A stretch of 42,917 nucleotides of DNA from a virus (taxonomy: Duplodnaviria > Heunggongvirae > Uroviricota > Caudoviricetes), in IMG/VR virus record IMGVR_UViG_2718218102_000002; one strand, given 5' to 3'. The position numbers were made by a program, and so were the translations under genes. Under the pieces are notes generated by a model. The model searched no databases, was not told the DNA's origin, and saw only the letters and a list, made by a program, of their open reading frames with translations. Below are positions 1 through 36,232 of this stretch, piece after piece (the stretch's first letter is position 1; every line of letters starts with the position of its first letter).

Positions 1-854
1 TGGCATTATTACTGGAGCCACTGCAGTTCACCTTTATGAGTCACGCACTGCTGATTTCACTGGTAGTTTCCATACCCTGTGCGCTGCTGTCGGTCTTTCT
101 GGTCCTGAAAGGCTGGGCACTGATGGGTGACGCGATGAGTCATGCGGTTTTTCCTGGCATCGTGCTTGCCTGGATTCTGGGGTTACCTTTGGCTACAGGG
201 GCATTCGTCGCCGGAGTATTCTGCGCGGTGGCGACGGGATACCTGAAAGACAACAGCCGAATCAAGCAAGATACAGTGATGGGGATTGTTTTTTCTGGCA
301 TGTTTGCCGCAGGTCTGATTTTGTATATTGCAGTCAAACCAGACGTACATCTTGACCATATTCTTTTCGGCGACATGCTCGGGATAACCATCGGCGATAT
401 AATCCAGACGGTGATTATTGCTGGGCTGGTTACACTTGTTATTAGCGTAAAATGGCGAGATTTTTTGCTGTTCAGCTTTGATTATCAACAGGCGCAGGTA
501 AGCGGTTTGCATACGAGATGGCTGCATTATGGGCTGCTGTGCATGGTCTCTCTGACCATTGTGGCGACGCTGAAAGCGGTAGGTATCATTCTCTCCATTT
601 CTCTGCTCATTGCGCCTGGCGCCATTGCGGTACTCCTGACACAACGCTTTTATATTGCGCTCCTACTGGCGACTGGCATATCGGTAATAGTGTCAATGAC
701 CGGTGTCTGGCTGTCCTTTTTTATCGACAGCGCACCAGCTCCGACGATTGTCGTCTTATTCGCGGTCGCGTTCATCATGACGTTTACCGTTACCAGCATC
801 AACGCACGCACAAAGGGAAACGCCCATACACAGGATCTGTTATCACCCAATTAG
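1..854 (+). CDS. sitD: Metal (Mn/Fe) ABC transporter permease, ABC-3 family, SitD-like; 5' end cut by window edge
   Basis: Track ORF 36-854 is in frame 3 and stays open back to base 3, so the true start lies upstream of the window. Multi-pass hydrophobic protein whose N-terminal region matches SitD/MntB-type permeases as recalled. Family call is from memory. Confidence 0.65.
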   Translation, partial: ALLLEPLQFTFMSHALLISLVVSIPCALLSVFLVLKGWALMGDAMSHAVFPGIVLAWILGLPLATGAFVAGVFCAVATGYLKDNSRIKQDTVMGIVFSGMFAAGLILYIAVKPDVHLDHILFGDMLGITIGDIIQTVIIAGLVTLVISVKWRDFLLFSFDYQQAQVSGLHTRWLHYGLLCMVSLTIVATLKAVGIILSISLLIAPGAIAVLLTQRFYIALLLATGISVIVSMTGVWLSFFIDSAPAPTIVVLFAVAFIMTFTVTSINARTKGNAHTQDLLSPN

Positions 855-1634: not shown

Positions 1635-2216
1635 TTACCCTATAGGTGCTACTGGCCACTCAATATCCGGTACTACTGATGTATCAACACGGTTCAGCAA
1701 CACCCGATACTTTTTCCAGGCTTCCAGCAACAAGGTTTCTTCCTCCGTTGCGATCTCCAGATCTACAGCATCCTGAAGCGGCGCTATATGCTCACTGGCT
1801 ACCTGCATCAGGCTGTTTTTTGTTTCTTCCGCCTCCCGGATCCGGAACAGTTTTTCTGCTTCCGTATCCTTCACCCAGGCTGTACCGTTCCACTTCTGAA
1901 ACTCCCCTTCCGGGGATAACCAGGTGACATTTTCCGGTAATGAGCCGAGTTCAGAAATAAATAACGCGTCGCCGGAAGCCACGTCATAGACCGTTTTTCC
2001 CCGATGGTCTTCAACGAGATGCCACGATGCCTCATCACTGTTGAAAACAGCCACGAAGCCAGCCGGAATATCTGGCGGTGCAATATCGGTACTGTTTGCT
2101 GGCAGACCTGTATGAGGCGGAATGTATGCGTCACCTTCACCAATAAATTCATTAGTTCCGGCCAGCAGATTATAAATTTTTATGGTCCGTGGTTGTTCAC
2201 TCATTCTGAATGCCAT
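1635..2216 (-). CDS. tfa: Tail fiber assembly protein Tfa (lambda Tfa-like)
   Basis: 193-aa ORF starting [20 protein letters not shown], directly downstream of stf with a 1-nt TAATG stop/start overlap. Confidence 0.9.
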
Positions 2217-5120: not shown

Positions 5121-5720
5121 TCAGAACTTATAACCGACACCCACGATGAAACCGTCAGTGCGCCAGTCACCACTGCCGGAACCTTCATAAGCAATATCAA
5201 TGGCCACGGATTCGGTCGGGTTAAACTGCACGCCAGCCCCCCACGCCAGAGACGTGTTGCTGTGGCGACCGTCATCACTTCCGGTCAGCACATCATGCGT
5301 TTTCCCCTTGTTGTCAGTTACGCGGAGATAATCCCCGGAAAAAGTCGACACACGGCTGTAAGCCACGCCCGCCATCGCATACGCACTGAACCATTCATTC
5401 ACGCGCACAGAGGGCCCCGCCATTACGCTGAACCAGCGGTTACGAACGGAATCTTCATGCCAGCGGGTATCGCTGTAACGGGTAAGCTGGCGATTCTTGT
5501 CTCCTGCATAGCTGAAAGACGTCACCATCCCCAGTGTGTCCGTAAACTCATAACGGTATTTCACGTTAATCCCGTTCAGATCATCGCTGCCGGGAACGTT
5601 CGTCGAGACATGAAGATACCCCGCGCTCAGCGTGGACTGATGTTCAGACGCCCATGCAGGCGTACCGGATACGGCCAGACAAATGGCTGCGGACAAAATG
5701 GCGGCATAAAGTTTACGCAT
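5121..5720 (-). CDS. lom: Outer membrane protein Lom (Ail/Lom family)
   Basis: 199 aa with signal peptide (…AVSGTPAWA) and C-terminal GYKF beta-barrel ending; sits between J and stf as in lambda. Confidence 0.9.
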
Positions 5721-22054: not shown

Positions 22055-22257
22055 AATTTCACTCCCAGCGGACGACGGCGACACCGGGTTGTCCCCAGTA
22101 CCGACTCCGCATCATTGATCGCCCGGTTAAGCTCATCCAGAGAAGCCGCCGTATATTCAATTCTGCGACCATCTTTCTGGACAGACACCACCCGTTTACC
22201 GGTTAATAAATCAAGGCGCGCCTGACGCAGCGCCTGCAGTTCAGCGACTGTAACCAT
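22051..22257 (-). CDS. W: Head-tail connector protein W
   Basis: 68 aa as in lambda W; contains TGKRVVSVQKDGRRIE. Confidence 0.85.
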   Translation of the reverse strand: MVTVAELQALRQARLDLLTGKRVVSVQKDGRRIEYTAASLDELNRAINDAESVLGTTRCRRRPLGVKL

Positions 22258-24169
22258 TCACTCCTCCGGACAGCTTCGCTGCCAGTTCTTTAAGGGTTGG
22301 CCGGGTCGTCTCTTCTTCCCGGGATTTTGCCAGTACAGCCAGATCAAGCTGCCAGCGTTGCACGGACACACGTAATGCCGCGTAGGCATACACCAGGCAG
22401 TCCAGCGCTTCGTTACGCCGCTTTTTGTTATCCCACAGCAGACGCATCTTTCCTTTTTCCCACTTCTCCACAAGCTCTTCCGCGACCAGTTGCTGCGCCT
22501 CTGTCTGCGAAAAAATCTCCGGATCATCAGGAAAACGGATGGCATACGACGTGGCTTCATCCACAGGCGTGGGATCGGCTTTCATACGGGCATAGAGAAT
22601 TTCTTTTGCGGTGTCCGTCCCCACTTCACACAGATACACGCCCCGCTGATTGCGGGTTTTTGGCATGGTGATCACCGGCTTGCCATAGACAGATGCGCCT
22701 TTTACCGGCAGCACCCGGAAAACACCGTGTTTTTTTGACCTCTGATAAACGATTTCGCCATCGATCCCCCCGATGTCCCAGCAGACACGGGAAATAGTCA
22801 TTTCGGTTCCGTCTGCATGGCGGTATTTTTTGTTGATCGCCGCATCCACACGTAACAGCGTCTCTTCCTCATCGGGACGCCCCATAATGATGATTTTATC
22901 CACCAGAAAGGCTTCCTCTCCCGGAGCCCATCCCCAGACATACATCTCAAAACGGTTTCGCTGCGAGTCAATGCCCGCCGTCAGATAAACCACCCGGGCA
23001 GGCACCGCCGCCGTGTAACGCACAACCTTATCCATCAGCACCTGGTGATCGAGTTTTTCGCCCACAGCCTCTTCCCAGGTCTCGCCCAGCGTGGTGTTCA
23101 CAAAGGTTTTCAGGCCGTTGGGATCTTTCAGTGCATCCAGCCAGTCATAGACAATCTGTACCCAGGTGGTGAACGGACTGTACGCCGTCCAGATATGGAA
23201 AGTGATGGAGCGCGGCGGCGGAATTTCATCACCCCGGGCGCTGAAAAACATCAGGCCGTCACGGGTCCACATGCCCGTGTTTTCACAGATCCACCGCCCG
23301 TTACTCTGGTCAAGCTCAGACTGATGGATCACACAGCCATGATGCTCACAAAGGTAGAAAACACTTTCTGGCTTATTCTTCTCCCACTTAAGACCGAAAG
23401 GCGAGGCATCATCGCCAAATTTCAGATACTGCTCCTCCCCACAGTGCGGACAGGGCACATAAAAACGCATGAAGTGTGCCGACTCGTTAGCGGCTTTTTC
23501 GATCTGGCAGGAGCCTTTGATTTTAGGCGTCGAGCCGCGAATGGATTTTGGCCATACAGAGCCCTCAATACGTTTATCCCCCAGCAGGGTTGGCGAACCC
23601 TCTTTTTCAACATCCGGTTCGAACGAGGAAAGCTCGTCATAACAGACCACATCCACGGATTTTTCACGGTAGTTTTTTGCTGCCGCACCACCCAGACACC
23701 AGAACCCCACACCGGAGGAAAAACGCTTCAGGGTGAGCGTATTATCGCGGTGTTTTCTTCCGAACCATGGAGCCAGCTCCAGCAATGCAGGAACATCCCT
23801 TATCGTTGGCTCAACATGAGATTTCATAAAATCTTCAGCAGCTGAGTCCGTGGGCTGAAAAAGAAGGCTGTTGCGTGATTTATGCTCAATAAAATAAGCC
23901 TCCACTCCCAGCAACATCTTTGTATAACCAACACGGGCAGATTTAATCAGGTTAACCGTGCGAATCAGATCGTTGCCCATACAGTTCATGATGCCAACCT
24001 GAAACGGCAGTGTTTCCCACCGCCCCGGGGTATAAGACGACTCTTTAGGAAGGTAATAATGTTTATTGGCCCACTGAACTGTCGTCAGTGGAACAGGAAT
24101 AATGAGAGATAAAAGCCCTGTAGCTATCGCACCGGCTGCATTAGCTGCCTTCTGCGCGTCTGAAATCAT
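22241..24169 (-). CDS. A: Terminase large subunit A
   Basis: Blocks recalled from lambda gpA ([16 protein letters not shown], Walker-type region). Start set at MISDAQ, overlapping the Nu1 3' end by 29 nt. Confidence 0.9.
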
Positions 24170-24689
24170 CGATCCACCCGCCCACGTTTTCACCGGCCTT
24201 AGCTGCAACATTGGAGGCTTTCGCGATTTCAGTTTTCACCACATCAAGGTGTGATGGTGAAATGTCCGGATATTTACGCTGTAATGTCAACGGCACACGC
24301 ACAAGTATCCCCGAAATCTCCTGTGCCACACGTTGCAGAATGAAGGTAAACAGTTCAGTTTCCAGCACTACTCCGTCTTCACGGGCATTTTTCAGTTCCT
24401 GCGCATCTGCCTGCGCTTTTGTGAGCCGGTAGCGTTCATAGTCAATGGTGCCGGGTTGTAAATCTGACTCCGCTGCCGCACGCAAATCGTCCAGTTCTTT
24501 GCGGAGCTTTTCGTTTTCGATATCAGTTTCCCTCTGCGCATACCACTGAATTGCCATGGCAGTATCAAATACAGATTCAATGCCCTTACTACCTTTGGAG
24601 GCGCAAGGGAGTCCCTGAGACTGCCAGCGTTCAATCGTCCGCGGGTCCACGTTGAAAATTTCGGCAAGCCTCTTTTTATTAACCTTCAT
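24141..24689 (-). CDS. Nu1: Terminase small subunit Nu1
   Basis: 182 aa, starting [12 protein letters not shown] with a winged-helix N-terminus; sits about 170 bp downstream of cosN. Confidence 0.9.
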
Positions 24690-24856
24690 GAAAACAACCC
24701 ATTATCAAATACAAGGCCCGACATGAAAACGCCAGAAAAAGGCATTTTCGGACACTTTCATGTCGGACCTTTACGGATGCAATATTAAAAAAAAACAAAA
24801 AGTTATATTCGAGAAGTACCGACACGATTTTCCCTGAAAAATTTTCATAAATAGTG

Positions 24857-24868
24857 AAAAACCGCGAG
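24857..24868 (-). other. cos: cosN 12-nt cohesive end (GGGCGGCGACCT on the minus strand)
   Basis: Exact 12-mer, with flanking context CAGGTTACG|GGGCGGCGACCT|CGCGGTTTTTCACTATTTATGAAAAT matching the recalled lambda cos junction. Confidence 0.85.
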
Positions 24869-25026
24869 GTCGCCGCCCCGTAACCTGTTGGATCGACGGA
24901 AAGGACCCGAAAACGAGAATAATTATCACTTACAGCAAGAATCGAATCTGATCTATTATGGTGCTTGCTATTATGTGCCGGCACAAGTGCGTCGTTTACC
25001 GTCATTTCACACAGAGGCATCATCAA

Positions 25027-25278
25027 ATGAAAATCAGAAATATTCTCGCTATCTCCCTTGCGACATCATCCTTCAGTTGCCTGGCATTTAAATCCTCGCC
25101 CAATGTGCTACCAGGACCAACGAATCAACTAACTGCGGTAGAAAGTAAAATTATCGGACATTTTTATGCCCCACACAGTACATTACCCGGAACAACCATC
25201 ACAGGGACATGTGACGCCTCCCCCGTCCCGGGATGCACCTGCCCGTTTTGTACTATGCTGCGTAGCCAAAACCGATAA
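25027..25278 (+). CDS. Hypothetical small secreted Cys-containing protein
   Basis: Internal ATG of track ORF 24958-25278 gives an 83-aa product with a signal-peptide-like N-terminus (MKIRNILAISLATSSFSCLA) and a CxCPFC motif near the C-terminus. Confidence 0.3.
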   Translation: MKIRNILAISLATSSFSCLAFKSSPNVLPGPTNQLTAVESKIIGHFYAPHSTLPGTTITGTCDASPVPGCTCPFCTMLRSQNR

Positions 25279-25641
25279 CATCCGCATTTACCTGGTATTC
25301 CATGATGAGTTCACGCAGCGACTGATAGAGGAAGGAAAGATGGTTAGTAAAAGCAAGGCACATTGCCGCCGCATGCTGCAGGCATTGCAACAGACGAGAG
25401 CAGGTATTTTTGACCAGTTGGAAAACTGCCAGCATACTTTGCCCGAGTATATCGCCATCTCATCGGAAACCAGTGCAACTCTTATTCATCGGGTTCCACC
25501 AGAGAAAAAGAAGAAATGAACAGTGAGGCGTTGTGTGGCATACAACGCCTTCTTCCATCATTCCTCGTCAGCCATGACAAAAATATAACCGCTGGCTCTT
25601 TCATTTTTCTCCTGCTTCCAGCCCCTCTCTATCTGGAAGCA

Positions 25642-25968
25642 TCAAGGACGTGACGGCGTAAAGATAAATTGTCTCTTCACTCCCTGACAGGGGCGATTCT
25701 TTTCAAATCGCCATTTCGCCATGGCCTTCACCACTTCATCACGAAACAAATTATGAGGCTCTGAGCGGAGAAAAACGATCCGTGTCACAGTCCCATCAGC
25801 ACCAATATCGAACTTAACCTCAACCAGCCCCTTGATATAATTTGCTGCAGCATATTCCGGATATCGTGGATACACCGTCACTAATTGCCGGGGCTCATCA
25901 GCTTTTTGCTGCGAGCATCCCACTGCCAGGACAGATAACAGAAAAAGTAGTAAAAGGCGTCTTTTCAT
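25642..25968 (-). CDS. Lipoprotein with TonB C-terminal-like domain (accessory gene)
   Basis: Start set at MKRRLLLLFLLSVLAVGCSQ (lipobox LAVGC), with an AGGA Shine-Dalgarno. The mature part resembles the TonB_C fold pattern (YPRYPEYAAANYIKGLVEVKFDIGADGTV…AMAKWRFE). Confidence 0.55.
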   Translation of the reverse strand: MKRRLLLLFLLSVLAVGCSQQKADEPRQLVTVYPRYPEYAAANYIKGLVEVKFDIGADGTVTRIVFLRSEPHNLFRDEVVKAMAKWRFEKNRPCQGVKRQFIFTPSRP

Positions 25969-26448
25969 TTTTATTCCTACGGGTCTTATTCTGACAATAT
26001 ATCCTGTGTTCCAGACTGCCACATCACCACATCCTGTGCCATTATCTGACTCACATTACATACATCGCATCGGGATACAGTAGTAGCACTTTCTGTAATA
26101 CAGCTTCCTGTTTCTTCCACCATCGCACCGGGATAAACCCGCGAATCATTAACGCGGTAAAAACCCGGTGTGCATCGTTTTTAATTATTCCCGCACACTC
26201 ACGCAGAAGGAATTCCCCGTCGGGCTACGGTCATGGTTAATGCGGGAATACGGCGACGATACAGCGCAGCTAAAAGGGTAATGGACGGATAGACCGGTTT
26301 ATTTCATTCCACAGGATTCTGAGTGTCCCCAACTTCCTCCAATAGTCTGAGCCCACCTGTGTAGTTTTAATTTTCATCAATCCATTTAACTATCGTTTAA
26401 TTGTTGTCACATAGGATTCTGCCGTTTTTAACAATGCAGGATAATAAG

Positions 26449-26742
26449 ATGAAAAAAATGTTGTTTTCTGCCGCTCTGGCAATGCTTATTACAGGATGTG
26501 CTCAACAGACGTTTACTGTTGGAAACAAACCTACAGCAGTAACACCAAAGGAAACCATCACCCATCATTTCTTCGTTTCGGGAATTGGGCAGAAGAAAAC
26601 TGTCGATGCAGCAAAAATTTGTGGTGGTGCAGAAAATGTTGTTAAAACAGAAACCCAGCAAACATTCGTAAATGGATTGCTCGGTTTTATTACTTTAGGC
26701 ATTTATACTCCGCTGGAAGCGCGTGTGTATTGCTCACAATAA
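26449..26742 (+). CDS. bor: Bor lipoprotein (serum resistance)
   Basis: 97 aa, starting MKKMLFSAALAMLITGCAQQ; opposite strand to the late genes, between Rz and cos as in lambda. Confidence 0.9.
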   Translation: MKKMLFSAALAMLITGCAQQTFTVGNKPTAVTPKETITHHFFVSGIGQKKTVDAAKICGGAENVVKTETQQTFVNGLLGFITLGIYTPLEARVYCSQ

Positions 26743-28106: not shown

Positions 28107-28532
28107 AAGCTGTGTGACGAAGTAACCACTCTTAACAGCATAACCAATTTTTTACGTACGTAAACTACTAAATGATATTTGTGAGAATGCCACCGAGTGT
28201 TCAAAACACCACCACAAATGCATAAGAAAACTTCAACAAATAACCAGTTAATAATTTCCGATGTTATTTTTAGTTTGTTTAAATTAAGCTAAAGAATTAT
28301 AGAGCACTTATAAATAAGTGCCATTAATATAAATTAGCTAATAGATTTATTTTTGTTCAGACAAGAGCCATGAATAGGATTAGATAGAAAAGGTTCCGAT
28401 AAAAATAGAGATCTACTTCACAAATTAAATGAGAAACTAAAACTTACATCTTGAAATAATCACATTGATTAGATGAATATTTATCGCGCAGTGACATCAT
28501 TTTTTAATAATAGTTCAAAAAAAGGGCGTACA

Positions 28533-29615
28533 ATGAAAAAATTAACAGTGGCAATTTCTGCTGTAGCTGCATCAGTACTGATGGCGATGTCTGCTCAGGC
28601 AGCTGAAATTTATAATAAAGACAGTAACAAGCTGGATCTATACGGGAAAGTTAATGCCAAGCACTACTTCTCCTCTAATGATGCAGATGATGGTGATACT
28701 ACTTATGCCCGTCTTGGCTTCAAAGGTGAAACCCAAATCAACGATCAACTGACTGGTTTCGGTCAGTGGGAATATGAATTCAAAGGCAACCGTGCTGAAT
28801 CTCAAGGTTCTTCCAAAGACAAAACCCGTCTTGCATTTGCAGGCCTGAAATTTGGTGATTACGGCTCAATCGATTACGGCCGTAACTACGGTGTAGCATA
28901 CGACATCGGTGCGTGGACTGACGTTCTGCCAGAATTCGGTGGTGATACCTGGACCCAAACAGATGTGTTCATGACTGGTCGCACTACTGGTGTTGCAACT
29001 TATCGTAACAACGACTTCTTTGGTCTGGTCGATGGCCTGAACTTTGCTGCTCAGTATCAGGGTAAAAATGACCGCACTGACGTAACTGAAGCCAATGGTG
29101 ATGGTTTCGGTTTCTCCACTACTTATGAGTATGAAGGATTCGGCGTGGGTGCAACCTATGCTAAATCAGATCGCACTGACGGTCAGGTCGCCTATGGTAA
29201 GAGCAAATTCAATGCCTCCGGCAAAAATGCGGAAGTATGGGCTGCAGGCCTGAAATATGATGCGAACAATATCTATCTGGCTACCACATATTCTGAAACT
29301 CAGAATATGACCGTTTTTGGTAATAACCATATTGCAAACAAAGCACAAAACTTTGAAGCAGTAGCACAATATCAGTTTGACTTCGGTCTGCGTCCATCTG
29401 TTGCTTACCTTCAGTCAAAAGGTAAAGACCTTGGTGTTCATGGTGACCGAGACTTAGTCAAGTATGTCGATGTCGGTGCTACTTACTACTTTAATAAAAA
29501 CATGTCCACTTTTGTTGATTACAAAATCAACTTAATTGACGATAGTAAGTTTACCAAAACAGCTGGTATTGATACCGACGACATCGTCGCTGTAGGTCTG
29601 GTTTATCAGTTCTAA
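28533..29615 (+). CDS. Outer membrane porin, OmpC/OmpF/NmpC (Lc-like) family
   Basis: Start set at MKKLTVAIS with a cleavable signal peptide; classic porin N-terminus [16 protein letters not shown] and C-terminal VGLVYQF. Confidence 0.85.
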
Positions 29616-32825: not shown

Positions 32826-33539
32826 TTATTCTTTATTATCTTCTTTACCACTTCGCACCATCCCGTTCGACTTGTTGCGGTTGTACTTCGCCTGAAGCAG
32901 CTGGATTGGCGTCGGGCCATGCTCGGCAGCCGGTGCTGCAATCGCCCGGCGCACAGGCGGTACTGGTTTGCCCTCGGTGACGCGCCTCTCCCACATGTCC
33001 AGCAGATCGCCGGCTTCACGCGCCAGCTCACCATGCGTTAACTGGCGCTCTGTGCTGCGGTGGCGCAGTTCGACGCAGATGTGGTACATGACAGGCTGTG
33101 ACCACGGGAAATGCTCGCTGGAAGTGAATTCGAAGGAACGATTACGCCAATCCCAGTATTCGGTTATGACTTGGTCAACAGTGATACCTAACGCCCCGCC
33201 ACTCTGCTTACACCACGCTACGAACTGGCCGGGCGACGGCAGGAATGGTCGCTCCTGTCGGCGGGCCACGCGCATTCCGGCGTTAACCTGCTCCATAGTG
33301 GTAATTCCATTTTCACGGAAAGCCATAACCCACTGACGGCGGATTTCGTTCAGCTCGTTCTGGTCGCGGTTCGCGAGGCTTGCCGGAAATGTCGCAAGCA
33401 GCTGGCTGAACACACCGTTGATGATCTGCGCCACCTGCTGCACCTGCGGCTTTTCGTCGTATTGTTCCGGCATGTTGTTGGCGATTCGACGCATCTGCTC
33501 ACGGTCAAAGTTAATCATCTGCGCGGCAATATTTTTCAT
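32826..33539 (-). CDS. P: Replication protein P (DnaB helicase loader)
   Basis: N-terminal ~110 aa (MKNIAAQMINFDREQMRRIANNMPEQYDEKPQVQQ…) matches lambda P as recalled; C-terminal part differs. Confidence 0.85.
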   Translation of the reverse strand: MKNIAAQMINFDREQMRRIANNMPEQYDEKPQVQQVAQIINGVFSQLLATFPASLANRDQNELNEIRRQWVMAFRENGITTMEQVNAGMRVARRQERPFLPSPGQFVAWCKQSGGALGITVDQVITEYWDWRNRSFEFTSSEHFPWSQPVMYHICVELRHRSTERQLTHGELAREAGDLLDMWERRVTEGKPVPPVRRAIAAPAAEHGPTPIQLLQAKYNRNKSNGMVRSGKEDNKE

Positions 33540-34465
33540 AGCTCCACCCCGTAAATCCAGTCAGTGTTTGTCAGGTCGAGTTTTGGTTTGCTGGCAGTCA
33601 CACCAGCCTGTTGCTTGTTGCGGTTAATTTCGAGCTGAGTCCACTTGTCGCGGAGTTTTGCTGGACTCAGCACGTTACCGGACCAGAAGTTGTCCTGGCA
33701 GGCCCAGCGGAACAGAACGCACATGTCGCGATGGTTACGCCCGTCACGCTCACGCATCAGGCGGATGTCGTTGGCCCACCCTGCAAAATTCGGTTTTCTG
33801 GCTGATGGCGCGATGGTCTTCACCATGTCAAACATCCACTCTGCGGCGGTCAGGTCTTCTGCTGTCCCCCACTTGCTGCCGCTCTGAATTGCAGCATCCG
33901 GTTTCACCACAGGAAGATCGTTTTCTGGCTGGTCAGAGGATTCGCCAGAATTCTCGGACGAAAAAGGTTTTATATTGTCTTTTGTTAGTTTGTCTTTTGT
34001 GTTTACCTGATTCGGGTAAACGTCTTTACCTGATTTGGGTAAACTTTTCTTACCTGATTCAGGTAAATTTACCTCTTTCAGGTAAACTTTATTTTTCTTA
34101 CCTGATTCGGGTAATGTTGACCATTCACTGACCACATTATTAATGCCGATATTCCGCCCGCTCTGAATAAAAATCCCACGCTTTACCAGAACACTTTTTG
34201 CAGCAGAACACTTGTGCGGCAATATCCCGGTCAACTCGGAAAGTTGCTCGTTGCTCACCCAATCCAGTTTTTTATTAAAGCCATATGTTTTGCGCATGAC
34301 AGCCAGGAAGACCAGAAGCTGGTGCTGTGTTAATCCGGCCAGCATCACAGCTTCCAGCAACTCATTTGCAATGCGCGTATAACCATCATCGAGATCTGCC
34401 ACGCGCGGCTCCTTTTGTGCCACATCCGGCACTGGAAAATTGAATATCTCAGCAGTGTTTGCCAT
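33536..34465 (-). CDS. O: Replication initiator O
   Basis: Start set at MANTAEIFNF (GGGAGG Shine-Dalgarno). N-terminal domain resembles lambda O (VADLDDGY, RKTYG-N); the gene contains the iteron array. Confidence 0.85.
   Translation of the reverse strand: MANTAEIFNFPVPDVAQKEPRVADLDDGYTRIANELLEAVMLAGLTQHQLLVFLAVMRKTYGFNKKLDWVSNEQLSELTGILPHKCSAAKSVLVKRGIFIQSGRNIGINNVVSEWSTLPESGKKNKVYLKEVNLPESGKKSLPKSGKDVYPNQVNTKDKLTKDNIKPFSSENSGESSDQPENDLPVVKPDAAIQSGSKWGTAEDLTAAEWMFDMVKTIAPSARKPNFAGWANDIRLMRERDGRNHRDMCVLFRWACQDNFWSGNVLSPAKLRDKWTQLEINRNKQQAGVTASKPKLDLTNTDWIYGVEL
34002..34115. repeat. ori: Origin of replication: five ~18-19-bp palindromic iterons (TTTACCTGATTCGGGTAAA-like) inside O, next to an AT-rich stretch (33961-34000)
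   Basis: Iterons at 34002-34020, 34025-34043, 34050-34067, 34068-34086 and 34098-34115. Confidence 0.75.
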
Positions 34466-34551
34466 AATTCCTCCCGCAATGAGTGTGTTACGATTTGCAC
34501 CTGAAAGTCGGTTCTGTTCGCGCAGACCGGCTTTCGCCATTTCTGAACCTG

Positions 34552-35097
34552 TCATATTGCCCCCAGCATGGTGGTGACCATCGCCATCAATGGACCAGCC
34601 AGATCCGGGTCCACACGAAACATCGACACAATGCCTTCACTCATCTCCTTCAGTTTCTGGTGGCGTGGTGCGTTGAGAATGACAGCCTGTTTTGCCTCAC
34701 TGAGTTCCTTTTCCATTTCAGCCAGCCGAGCCATGTAGCTATCCTGCTCAACCAGGTGGCCGCGATATTCCAGCGGTAGTACCGCCAGAATTGCCGGGGT
34801 CAGTTCACGCACGTTATTTCGGTATTTTTCAGAATCGAATTTGTTATCGAGAAAGCGGAACAGCTTCTGGCGTGCACGGCTGACATCATCAGGGAAATCG
34901 ATGGTGCCGCCGCCCTGCTCCCGATACTCATTCACAATGAGTGCGGCAACAACATCCTGATTATCTGCAGCCGACCAGGCGCGAACGGCATCACGGATTT
35001 TTTCGTGGCCTGGCGCCTGTTTTGTTTGAGAACGATTTATCACCGCAGTCGGGCTAAATCCGCTAGTCTGTTGGTATGTAAGTGGTTGCATAGTCAT
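34552..35097 (-). CDS. Hypothetical regulator in the cII position (CII-like or YdaT-like); function uncertain
   Basis: 181-aa ORF between cro and O; no family confidently recognised by eye. Confidence 0.4.
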   Translation of the reverse strand: MTMQPLTYQQTSGFSPTAVINRSQTKQAPGHEKIRDAVRAWSAADNQDVVAALIVNEYREQGGGTIDFPDDVSRARQKLFRFLDNKFDSEKYRNNVRELTPAILAVLPLEYRGHLVEQDSYMARLAEMEKELSEAKQAVILNAPRHQKLKEMSEGIVSMFRVDPDLAGPLMAMVTTMLGAI

Positions 35098-35121
35098 TGC
35101 CTTATCAGTTAACGCCGCAGT

Positions 35122-35349
35122 TTAGGCGGCAGAATTACTCGCGTTAAACAATGGTGCGAGGTCGGGACGAATATCTGCTGGTTTAATCTTTCCACCAGTG
35201 GCTGAGACAATTTTCATTACATAGCGGGCATCAATTCCGCCACCGTGTAGCCAACGCCAAACTGTGGGTTGGGCTACACCGCATAGATCTGCCAGTCGTT
35301 TTTGACTACCTGTAATACTGATTGCGAGTTGAATGGTTTGATTTGTCAT
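35122..35349 (-). CDS. cro: Cro-like HTH repressor
   Basis: 75 aa from the ATG at 35349 (track start is a TTG). HTH motif QKRLADLCGVAQPTVWRW; divergent from cI across the operator region. Confidence 0.7.
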   Translation of the reverse strand: MTNQTIQLAISITGSQKRLADLCGVAQPTVWRWLHGGGIDARYVMKIVSATGGKIKPADIRPDLAPLFNASNSAA

Positions 35350-35459
35350 TATCAATTCCTATTGGTATTGCAATGAATAAATAATAGCAATGCGTATTAA
35401 TCCAAGCAATAGCAAAACGTGTTTTGACCATCAATACGCAAGCGTATAAATTAAAACTT
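35350..35459. promoter_or_regulatory. Right operator/promoter region (oR with divergent pR and pRM-like promoters)
   Basis: Three ATAGCAAT/ACCAATAG-type sites spaced about 22-23 bp apart (35359-35375, 35381-35398, 35404-35418). Plus strand: TTGACC (35424-35429) and TATAAA (35445-35450) just before the cI ATG. Minus strand: TTGCTT-17nt-TATTAT upstream of cro. Confidence 0.5.
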
Positions 35460-36152
35460 ATGAAAAAAGAAACTCTTGCTGATCGCTTAAACCTAGCGAT
35501 GGAACAATCTGGAATGTCTCAAGGCGCTCTTGCAAAGGCGTCTGGCGTAGCTCAACCCACAATCTGGAGACTGACAAGCGGCAACGCGCGCGGCTCAACA
35601 AAAATTGTTGAAATAGCTAATGCATTGGGTGTTCGAACAGAATGGCTCTCATCAGGCATAGGCCCGATGAGAAATGACGGTCAACAATCAGGGAAGCCTG
35701 CTGTCAGCTATTCCAAATACTTTAAAATTGACGTTCTTGATATAGAAGTGAGTGCCGGGCCGGGAGTCATCAACCGTGAGTTTGTAGAAGTTCTACGCTC
35801 GGTTGAGTACTCGTTTGACGATGCTCGTCACATGTTCGATGGTAGGAAGGCAGAAAATATCCGCATCATTAACGTACGCGGTGACAGCATGTCAGGAACG
35901 ATTGAACCTGGTGATCTTCTATTCGTTGATATCACGGTTAAATCTTTCGACGGTGATGGTATCTATGCGTTTCTGTACGACGACACAGCCCATGTAAAGC
36001 GCCTGCAAATGATGAAGGATAAGCTGCTGGTTATCTCTGATAACAAAAGCTACTCACCGTGGGACCCGATCGAGAAAGATGAGATGAACCGGGTATTTAT
36101 CTTCGGGAAAGTTATTGGGAGCATGCCGCAGACGTATAGGAAGCATGGATAG
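35460..36152 (+). CDS. cI: CI-type repressor (N-terminal HTH plus C-terminal S24 LexA-like autopeptidase)
   Basis: HTH motif QGALAKASGVAQPTIWRL; GDSM and a downstream Lys (HVKRL) typical of the S24 Ser-Lys dyad. The ATG at 35460 is preferred over the track TTG at 35424. Confidence 0.85.
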   Translation: MKKETLADRLNLAMEQSGMSQGALAKASGVAQPTIWRLTSGNARGSTKIVEIANALGVRTEWLSSGIGPMRNDGQQSGKPAVSYSKYFKIDVLDIEVSAGPGVINREFVEVLRSVEYSFDDARHMFDGRKAENIRIINVRGDSMSGTIEPGDLLFVDITVKSFDGDGIYAFLYDDTAHVKRLQMMKDKLLVISDNKSYSPWDPIEKDEMNRVFIFGKVIGSMPQTYRKHG

Positions 36153-36232
36153 TACCAATTAAAAATTATCAACCGGGCATTGTGCTCATTCAGTAAAACA
36201 ACTTAATTATTCATTTTAGAATGGAGAACTTA

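What the first reader, a model, noticed from the sequence alone, without database searches (positions are those of the whole stretch)
24780..24880. Lambda-type cos site marks the packaging boundary
The 12-nt cohesive end GGGCGGCGACCT (minus strand, 24857-24868) with lambda-like flanks lies about 170 bp upstream of Nu1. Genes at higher coordinates (lysis, Q, nin, replication, immunity, int) are therefore the right arm of the phage genome, and genes at lower coordinates (Nu1 to tfa) the left arm.
Basis: partly seen in the sequence, partly recalled or inferred. Interest (0 to 1): 0.4.

Follow-up and report, generated by a model that had tools for sequence, protein, structure and literature searches.

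The report
Phage 21-type cos packaging site
This is the well-known DNA-packaging (cos) site of a phage 21-like lambdoid prophage of uropathogenic E. coli, almost base-for-base identical to the experimentally mapped cos of phage 21, so it is real but ordinary.

Summary
The 12-nt cohesive-end sequence GGGCGGCGACCT is present once in the window, on the minus strand. It lies at 24867-24878, not 24857-24868 as written, a 10-bp slip.

It is part of a complete cos of about 220 bp (about 24690-24910). From -166 to +400 this cos matches the cos of phage 21 at every base except one extra T in a T-run at the IHF site I1. cosQ, the 12-nt end and the flanks are lambda-like: 31 of 32 bp match lambda across cosN.

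cosB and the small terminase subunit are 21-specific, not lambda-specific:
- R3 bp 56/59 are G/G, against T/C in lambda.
- TerS residues 20/24 are E/S, against Q/E in lambda.
- Both terminase subunits are 100% identical in protein sequence to phage 21 gp1 and gp2.

The window is an exact stretch of E. coli BH100N, a prophage inserted at icd, which is the phage 21 attachment site. Int to lysis, iss and tonB lie at higher coordinates. Terminase to tfa lie at lower coordinates.

The window is cut at both prophage ends. The full unit is 46,706 bp and carries sitABCD as cargo.

The feature is already known. Whether this particular prophage is inducible, and whether the +1 bp R3-R2 spacing is tolerated, was not tested.

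The parts
24902..24908 (-). cosQ heptamer GGGTCCT, the packaging-termination subsite. It lies within the older 'R4' box at 24898-24909.
   Evidence: Identical to phage 21 cosQ (annotated at OL657228 42902-42908) and to lambda positions -30..-24. R4 was mapped from M81255.
24857..24888 (-). cosN, the nicking site with partial two-fold symmetry. This span is positions -10..+22 of the mature genome.
   Evidence: 31/32 identical to lambda and 100% identical to phage 21.
24867..24878 (-). 12-nt cohesive-end sequence GGGCGGCGACCT. Window 24878 is base 1 of the mature phage chromosome.
   Evidence: Unique exact match. Phage 21 records OL657228 and X02501 begin at this base.
24835..24849 (-). I2, an IHF-site-like sequence between cosN and cosB.
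   Evidence: Mapped from the M81255 annotation, 100% identical.
24814..24829 (-). cosB R3, a TerS (gp1) binding box: AATCGTGTCGGTACTT.
   Evidence: Identical to the annotated R3 of phage 21. Specificity bp 56/59 are G/G, against T/C in lambda (PMC4669245).
24792..24807 (-). cosB I1, the IHF binding and bending site. It includes the T-run with one extra T (T9 against T8 in phage 21).
   Evidence: This is the only difference from phage 21 cos. The T9 form is found in 33 of 576 E. coli records and in none of 13 phage records.
24756..24771 (+). cosB R2, a TerS binding box inverted relative to R3 and R1: TTTCATGTCGGACCTT on the + strand.
   Evidence: It forms a 27-nt inverted repeat with R1.
24713..24728 (-). 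cosB R1, a TerS binding box: TTTCATGTCGGGCCTT.
24692..24706 (-). I0, an IHF-like site that overlaps the ribosome-binding site of gene 1 (24697-24700).
   Evidence: Mapped from M81255 and OL657228.
24141..24689 (-). Terminase small subunit (phage 21 gp1, the Nu1 homologue), 182 aa.
   Evidence: Pfam Phage_Nu1, E = 1.9e-81. 100% identical to phage 21 gp1 and 51.6% to lambda Nu1.
22241..24169 (-). Terminase large subunit (phage 21 gp2, the gpA homologue), 642 aa. The real start is 14 codons inside the mechanical ORF.
   Evidence: Pfam GpA_ATPase and GpA_nuclease. 100% identical to phage 21 gp2 and 64.5% to lambda gpA.

Best explanation
The site is the cos of a phage 21-like lambdoid prophage.

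After induction and excision from icd, the genome replicates into concatemers. The prophage's own small terminase subunit (gp1) binds the three R boxes of cosB. IHF bends the DNA at I1, which brings R3 and inverted R2 together. That positions the large subunit (gp2) to make staggered nicks 12 nt apart in cosN.

The end carrying cosB then docks on the portal. DNA is pumped in from Nu1 toward tfa, which is toward lower window coordinates. It continues around through attP, int, immunity, replication and lysis. At the next cos, cosQ plus cosN trigger the terminating cut.

The result is a linear genome of about 46.7 kb with 5' GGGCGGCGACCT overhangs. Its base 1 is window 24878.

Shown here: sequence identity of every subsite and of both terminase subunits to phage 21, gene order, and the att duplication.

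Inferred: that this particular prophage is inducible and that its cos is actually cut.
For: Identity to phage 21:
- cos region is 99.6-99.8% identical to three independent phage 21 records.
- From -166 to +400 there is a single difference, one extra T.
- All annotated subsites (cosQ/R4, cosN, I2, R3, I1 core, R2, R1, I0) map with identical sequence.
- TerS and TerL are 100% identical to phage 21 gp1 and gp2.

Specificity and repeats:
- Specificity determinants are of 21 type: R3 bp 56/59 are G/G, and TerS residues 20/24 are E/S (PMC4669245).
- Exact 16-mer R boxes occur only in cosB. At up to 3 mismatches there are 4 matches, against 0.61 expected.
- R1 and R2 form an inverted repeat.

Context:
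- Gene order is that of a lambda prophage with cos between the lysis module and the terminase genes.
- No pseudogene flags appear across the prophage in BH100N.
- A 215-bp icd duplication gives a 46,706-bp unit.
- Isolated phages with the same head module have genomes of 47-50 kb, so 46.7 kb should fit.
- There is only one such cos in the BH100N record.

Mechanism is taken from the lambda/21 literature (PMC4669245).
Against: - No experimental data were found here for this prophage, whether induction, virion ends or plaques.
- The extra T lengthens the R3-R2 spacing by 1 bp.
- That form is absent from all 13 sequenced phages with a 21-type cosB. It is a minority among prophages, 33 of 576 records. 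Its effect on the IHF-bent TerS-cosB complex is untested.
- No N antiterminator is annotated, and the immunity region is Rac-like. Competence for lytic growth is therefore assumed, based on about 97% similarity of most of the right arm to viable phages.
Confidence: 0.93

Rival explanations
1. The cos is an intact-looking relic in a prophage that can no longer make particles. It would then be a historical boundary that is never cut today.
For: - The related UTI89 copy has several pseudogenes: a frameshifted zapA-like gene, a partial DUF1364 gene and a truncated tail fibre.
- The T9 spacing variant is not seen in any isolated phage.
- No induction data were found.
Against: - The BH100N copy, which is identical to the window, shows no pseudogene flags in any head, tail, lysis, replication or integration gene.
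- Terminase proteins are 100% identical to those of viable phage 21.
- Both att copies are present.
- The genome length is packageable (compared).
Confidence: 0.2
2. The cos belongs to a satellite, a phage-inducible chromosomal island that borrows a helper phage's terminase, and not to an autonomous phage.
For: Enterobacterial PICIs do carry lambda-like cosN and cosQ (PMC9026076, title and abstract only).
Against: - The element is 46.7 kb with a full set of terminase, head, tail, lysis and replication genes.
- Its cosB matches its own TerS exactly as in phage 21.
- These are not the features of a PICI, which from my own knowledge is about 10-15 kb with no structural genes and a redirected TerS.
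Confidence: 0.01
3. The 12-mer is a chance match and has no packaging role.
For: None, beyond the fact that a 12-mer alone is short.
Against: - It is a unique match, with 0.14 expected at up to 1 mismatch.
- It sits within 566 bp that differ from the mapped phage 21 cos at one base.
- It is in the canonical position between the lysis and terminase genes.
Confidence: 0.005

Closest known systems
cos of Escherichia phage 21 (records OL657228, M81255, X02501)
   Same: - cosQ, cosN, I2, R3, R2, R1 and I0 are identical.
- The I1 core is identical.
- TerS and TerL proteins are 100% identical.
- The last 2 kb of the right end is 99.85% identical.
- The integration site (icd) is the same.
   Different: - One extra T in the T-run at I1, so R3-R2 spacing is +1 bp.
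- The rest of the genome is mosaic. The left arm is about 97% identical over 79% of its length.
- Phage 21 was not among the eight listed best matches for the right arm.
- The unit is 46.7 kb against 42.9 kb, and it carries sitABCD.
cos of phage lambda (NC_001416)
   Same: - The 12-nt cohesive end and the cosQ heptamer are identical.
- cosN matches 31/32.
- The overall architecture is the same: cosQ, cosN, I2, R3, I1, inverted R2, R1, then Nu1 about 190 bp in.
   Different: - cosB R boxes differ (core TGTCGG here, against CGTTTCC in lambda).
- R3 bp 56/59 are G/G, against T/C in lambda.
- TerS is only 51.6% identical, with recognition residues E20/S24 against Q20/E24.
- Lambda terminase would therefore initiate poorly here (PMC4669245).
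NC-SV and other icd-integrated lambdoid prophages of ExPEC/AIEC (UTI89, NU14, NC101)
   Same: - Lambdoid gene order and insertion at the phage 21 att site in icd (PMC12803456).
- The UTI89 copy has a 100% identical cos.
- It is 98.3% identical to the window from J to Q.
   Different: - The immunity and replication modules and the tail-fibre modules differ from UTI89.
- Identity to NC-SV itself was not tested.

Membership tests
Lambda-like cos (12-nt 5' cohesive ends; cosQ-cosN-cosB) | [quoted passage not shown] | tested here: met
   12/12 identical. Positions -10..+22 match 31/32.
Lambda-like cos (12-nt 5' cohesive ends; cosQ-cosN-cosB) | Conserved 7-bp cosQ about 30 bp upstream of the cohesive end. 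| tested here: met
   GGGTCCT at -30..-24, which is window 24902-24908.
Lambda-like cos (12-nt 5' cohesive ends; cosQ-cosN-cosB) | Complex cosB: three R boxes with R2 inverted, and an IHF site between R3 and R2, directly upstream of the TerS gene. | tested here: met
   R3, I1, R2 (inverted) and R1 were mapped. Nu1-family and gpA-family genes follow.
Lambda-like cos (12-nt 5' cohesive ends; cosQ-cosN-cosB) | Virion DNA actually ends in staggered 12-nt overhangs at this site. | not testable with these tools
   This needs virion DNA from an induced lysogen. It is supported only by identity to phage 21, whose records begin at this base.
Phage 21 packaging-specificity group | 21-type R-box sequence, including specificity bp 56 and 59 of R3. 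| tested here: met
   R3, R2 and R1 are identical to phage 21. Bp 56/59 are G/G, against T/C in lambda (PMC4669245).
Phage 21 packaging-specificity group | TerS recognition helix of 21 type (residues 20 and 24). | tested here: met
   TerS is 100% identical to phage 21 gp1, with E20 and S24.
Phage 21 packaging-specificity group | Native R3-I1-R2 spacing. | tested here: not met
   One extra T (T9 against T8) gives +1 bp. All 13 phage records have T8. The functional consequence is unknown. This is a spacing difference only and does not change the recognition sequences.
Lambda packaging-specificity group (cosB-lambda / Nu1) | Lambda-type R boxes and Nu1 recognition residues Q20/E24. | tested here: not met
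   cosB matches lambda at only 76/142 positions ungapped. TerS is 51.6% identical, with E20/S24.

The most novel reading that the evidence does not exclude
The +1 bp R3-R2 spacing (the T9 allele) is seen only in prophages and in none of the 13 phage-collection records with a 21-type cosB. It might change how terminase assembles on cosB. It could alter IHF dependence, or weaken initiation so that the sitABCD- and iss-carrying prophage is packaged poorly and is effectively domesticated. Alternatively the prophage is fully active, and cos packaging of this 46.7-kb unit is a route by which the sit iron/manganese transporter spreads among ExPEC.
Probability: 0.15. Interest if true: 0.3.

Novelty: already known. 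Interest (0 to 1): 0.1.

Why it matters
This result matters mainly for annotation:
- It fixes base 1 of the mature phage genome at window 24878.
- It fixes the packaging direction, toward lower window coordinates.
- It sets the packaging specificity as phage 21, not lambda. That tells anyone planning helper-packaging, cosmid-like or transduction experiments which terminase would act on this prophage.
- It shows the window is a truncated view of a 46.7-kb icd-integrated prophage. That prophage carries the virulence-associated cargo genes sitABCD and iss, plus a lom-family (Ail/Lom) gene and an ompC-like porin gene, all of which would travel with the virion genome.

None of this changes current understanding of cos packaging.

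Tried and rejected
- **att repeat between tfa and sitD:** I looked here for the prophage end and found only 9-11-nt chance matches. The true attR is the icd remnant beyond sitA.
- **RNA genes:** Rfam and tRNA scans were run in case an RNA gene explained conservation near cos. Nothing was found near cos. The only hit was IS009, inside tfa.
- **Promoter and terminator scan of 24600-25700:** the counts were no higher than in shuffled sequence. A 'terminator-like' hit at 24880-24865 is just the GC-rich cosN followed by its T-run.
- **The 115-aa ORF spanning cos (24679-25026):** I considered whether it is a gene. Its only PHROG hit covers exactly the conserved cos DNA, so I regard it as a spurious call.
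- **PICI and chance-match explanations:** both rejected on gene content and on identity to phage 21.
- **Literature searches for induction of this prophage:** nothing specific was found.

Full report
**1. Observation**

Reading the minus strand and an exact search show GGGCGGCGACCT once in the window, at 24867-24878 (-). That interval reads CTCGCGGTTTTT.

With one mismatch allowed, 0.14 matches are expected by chance.

The Nu1-family ORF starts at 24689. The gap between the 12-mer and the ATG is therefore 177 bp, so 'about 170 bp' is fair.

**2. What it is**

A 501-bp query around the site is 99.6-99.8% identical to phage 21 records. These are M81255 (head operon), X02501 ('bacteriophage 21 cos segment') and OL657228 (complete genome). 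X02501 and OL657228 both begin at query position 223, which is window 24878, the first G of the 12-mer.

From -166 to +400 the only real difference from M81255 and OL657228 is one extra T in a T-run at about window 24795, giving T9 against T8. A second mismatch reported at the last column is an end-of-alignment artefact.

I transferred the curated annotations through that alignment. All sites are on the minus strand except R2, which is inverted.

| Subsite | Window coordinates |
|---|---|
| cosQ GGGTCCT | 24902-24908 |
| Cohesive end | 24867-24878 |
| I2 | 24835-24849 |
| R3 | 24814-24829 |
| I1 | 24792-24807 |
| R2 (inverted) | 24756-24771 |
| R1 | 24713-24728 |
| I0 / ribosome-binding site | 24692-24706 |
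| Gene 1 ATG | 24689 |

Independent checks agree. R1 and R2 form a 27-nt inverted repeat. Exact 16-mer R boxes occur only in cosB.

**3. Lambda or 21?**

Against lambda:
- cosQ matches 7/7.
- The cohesive end matches 12/12.
- Positions -10..+22 match 31/32.
- cosB is diverged, at 76/142 ungapped.
- R3 specificity positions 56/59 are G/G here and T/C in lambda.

For the proteins:
- The small subunit is 100% identical to phage 21 gp1 and 51.6% to lambda Nu1.
- The large subunit is 100% identical to phage 21 gp2 and 64.5% to lambda gpA.
- TerS residues 20/24 are E/S here and Q/E in lambda.

Feiss et al. (PMC4669245) state three relevant points. [quoted passage not shown] Each packages its own DNA more than 1000-fold better than the other's. 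The discrimination lies in the recognition helix (residues 20 and 24) and the R sites (bp 56 and 59).

So the site is lambda-like in architecture and ends, but of phage 21 packaging specificity.

**4. Context and the 'arms'**

The window is the exact reverse complement of E. coli BH100N NZ_CP025703.1:1286094-1329010.

RefSeq annotation, read from high to low window coordinates, runs:
- int, xis, exo, bet, gam
- repressor, cro-like gene, YdaT-domain gene
- replication O and P
- nin genes, rusA, quuD
- ompC-like porin
- essD, rrrD, rzpD
- iss (bor-like), a TonB-family gene and a small hypothetical gene
- **cos**
- terminase S and L, W, portal, S49 protease, decoration protein, major capsid protein, FI
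- tail genes, J, lom, stf, tfa
- sitD

The phage Perceval record also ends at window 24879.

**5. Prophage limits**

icd lies just outside the window's high end, and the window stops at the int stop codon.

A 215-bp, 94.4%-identical copy of the icd 3' end lies beyond sitA. This is the phage 21/e14-type integration. A lambdoid prophage at the phage 21 att site in icd has also been described for AIEC strain NC101 (PMC12803456).

The att-to-att unit is 46,706 bp and includes sitABCD. The window therefore lacks attL, sitCBA and attR. In the virion, the left arm would run Nu1...tfa-sitDCBA-attP.

Isolated phages that share this head module have 47-50 kb genomes, so 46.7 kb should be packageable. 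That last step is an inference.

**6. Mechanism**

This follows the established lambda/21 model (PMC4669245), applied by homology:
1. gp1 binds R3, R2 and R1.
2. IHF bends the DNA at I1.
3. gp2 nicks cosN 12 nt apart.
4. The end carrying cosB docks on the portal.
5. DNA is translocated toward lower window coordinates.
6. cosQ plus cosN at the next cos terminate packaging.

While the prophage is integrated there is only one such cos in the chromosome. Productive cos-to-cos packaging therefore requires excision and concatemer formation.

**7. Caveats**

- No induction data for this prophage were found.
- The T9 allele adds 1 bp between R3 and R2.
- The 21-type R3-I1-R2 segment occurs in 575 of 5,426 complete E. 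coli genomes.
- Only 33 of those 576 records carry the exact T9 form, and none of 13 phage records does.
- The IHF core (AAACAAAAAGTTA on the other strand) is unchanged. I expect the extra base to be tolerated, but this is untested.

**8. Novelty**

None. This is the textbook phage 21 cos in a common ExPEC prophage. A cos-like sequence is found in 2,021 of 5,426 complete E. coli genomes.

The useful output is a corrected and complete coordinate map, the specificity assignment and the true prophage boundaries.

Noticed in passing
window 24787-24795 (T-run at I1): T9 here against T8 in phage 21 and in all 13 phage records that carry a 21-type cosB. The exact T9 form occurs in 33 of 576 E. coli genome records. 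It adds 1 bp between the R3 and R2 terminase-binding boxes.
   Followed up: partly
window 24679-25026 (-): A mechanical 115-aa ORF spans cos. It hits phrog_11159 ('unknown function') only over aa 37-66, which is nt 24829-24918, the conserved cosQ-cosN-I2-R3 DNA. That PHROG family is probably built from spurious ORF calls across cos sites. PhiR57_1 and 4A7 annotate a 'hypothetical protein' there.
   Followed up: partly
window 36-854 (+); BH100N NZ_CP025703.1 1328157-1332737: sitD, with sitCBA beyond the window, lies inside the prophage att boundaries, between tfa and the icd 3' remnant. The sit iron/manganese transporter is therefore phage cargo. The prophage unit is 46,706 bp.
   Followed up: yes
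window 26401-26742 (+), 28473-29615 (+), 5121-5720 (-): Three lysogenic-conversion-type cargo genes. One is iss (increased serum survival, bor-like), between the lysis genes and cos. One is an ompC-like porin, between Q and the holin. One is an Ail/Lom-family outer-membrane protein, after J.
   Followed up: no
window 25642-26022 (-): A small ORF has a Pfam TonB_C domain (E = 1.1e-12) and an N-terminal lipoprotein-like signal. It is conserved in phage 21. PHROGs labels its family 'Rz-like spanin', which looks like a mis-annotation. Its function is unknown.
   Followed up: no
window 1675-1873 (-): Rfam IS009 (RF02111) matches at 221 bits over its full length, inside the tail fibre assembly gene.
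   Followed up: no
window about 33500-36200: The immunity and replication region is Rac-like: an XRE-family repressor, an HTH cro-like gene and a YdaT-domain protein. No N antiterminator gene is annotated, unlike in lambda.
   Followed up: no
window 22241-24211 (-): The mechanical ORF for the large terminase subunit starts 14 codons upstream of the real start. The real start is 24169, by identity with phage 21 gp2. It overlaps the end of gene 1, as A overlaps Nu1 in lambda.
   Followed up: yes
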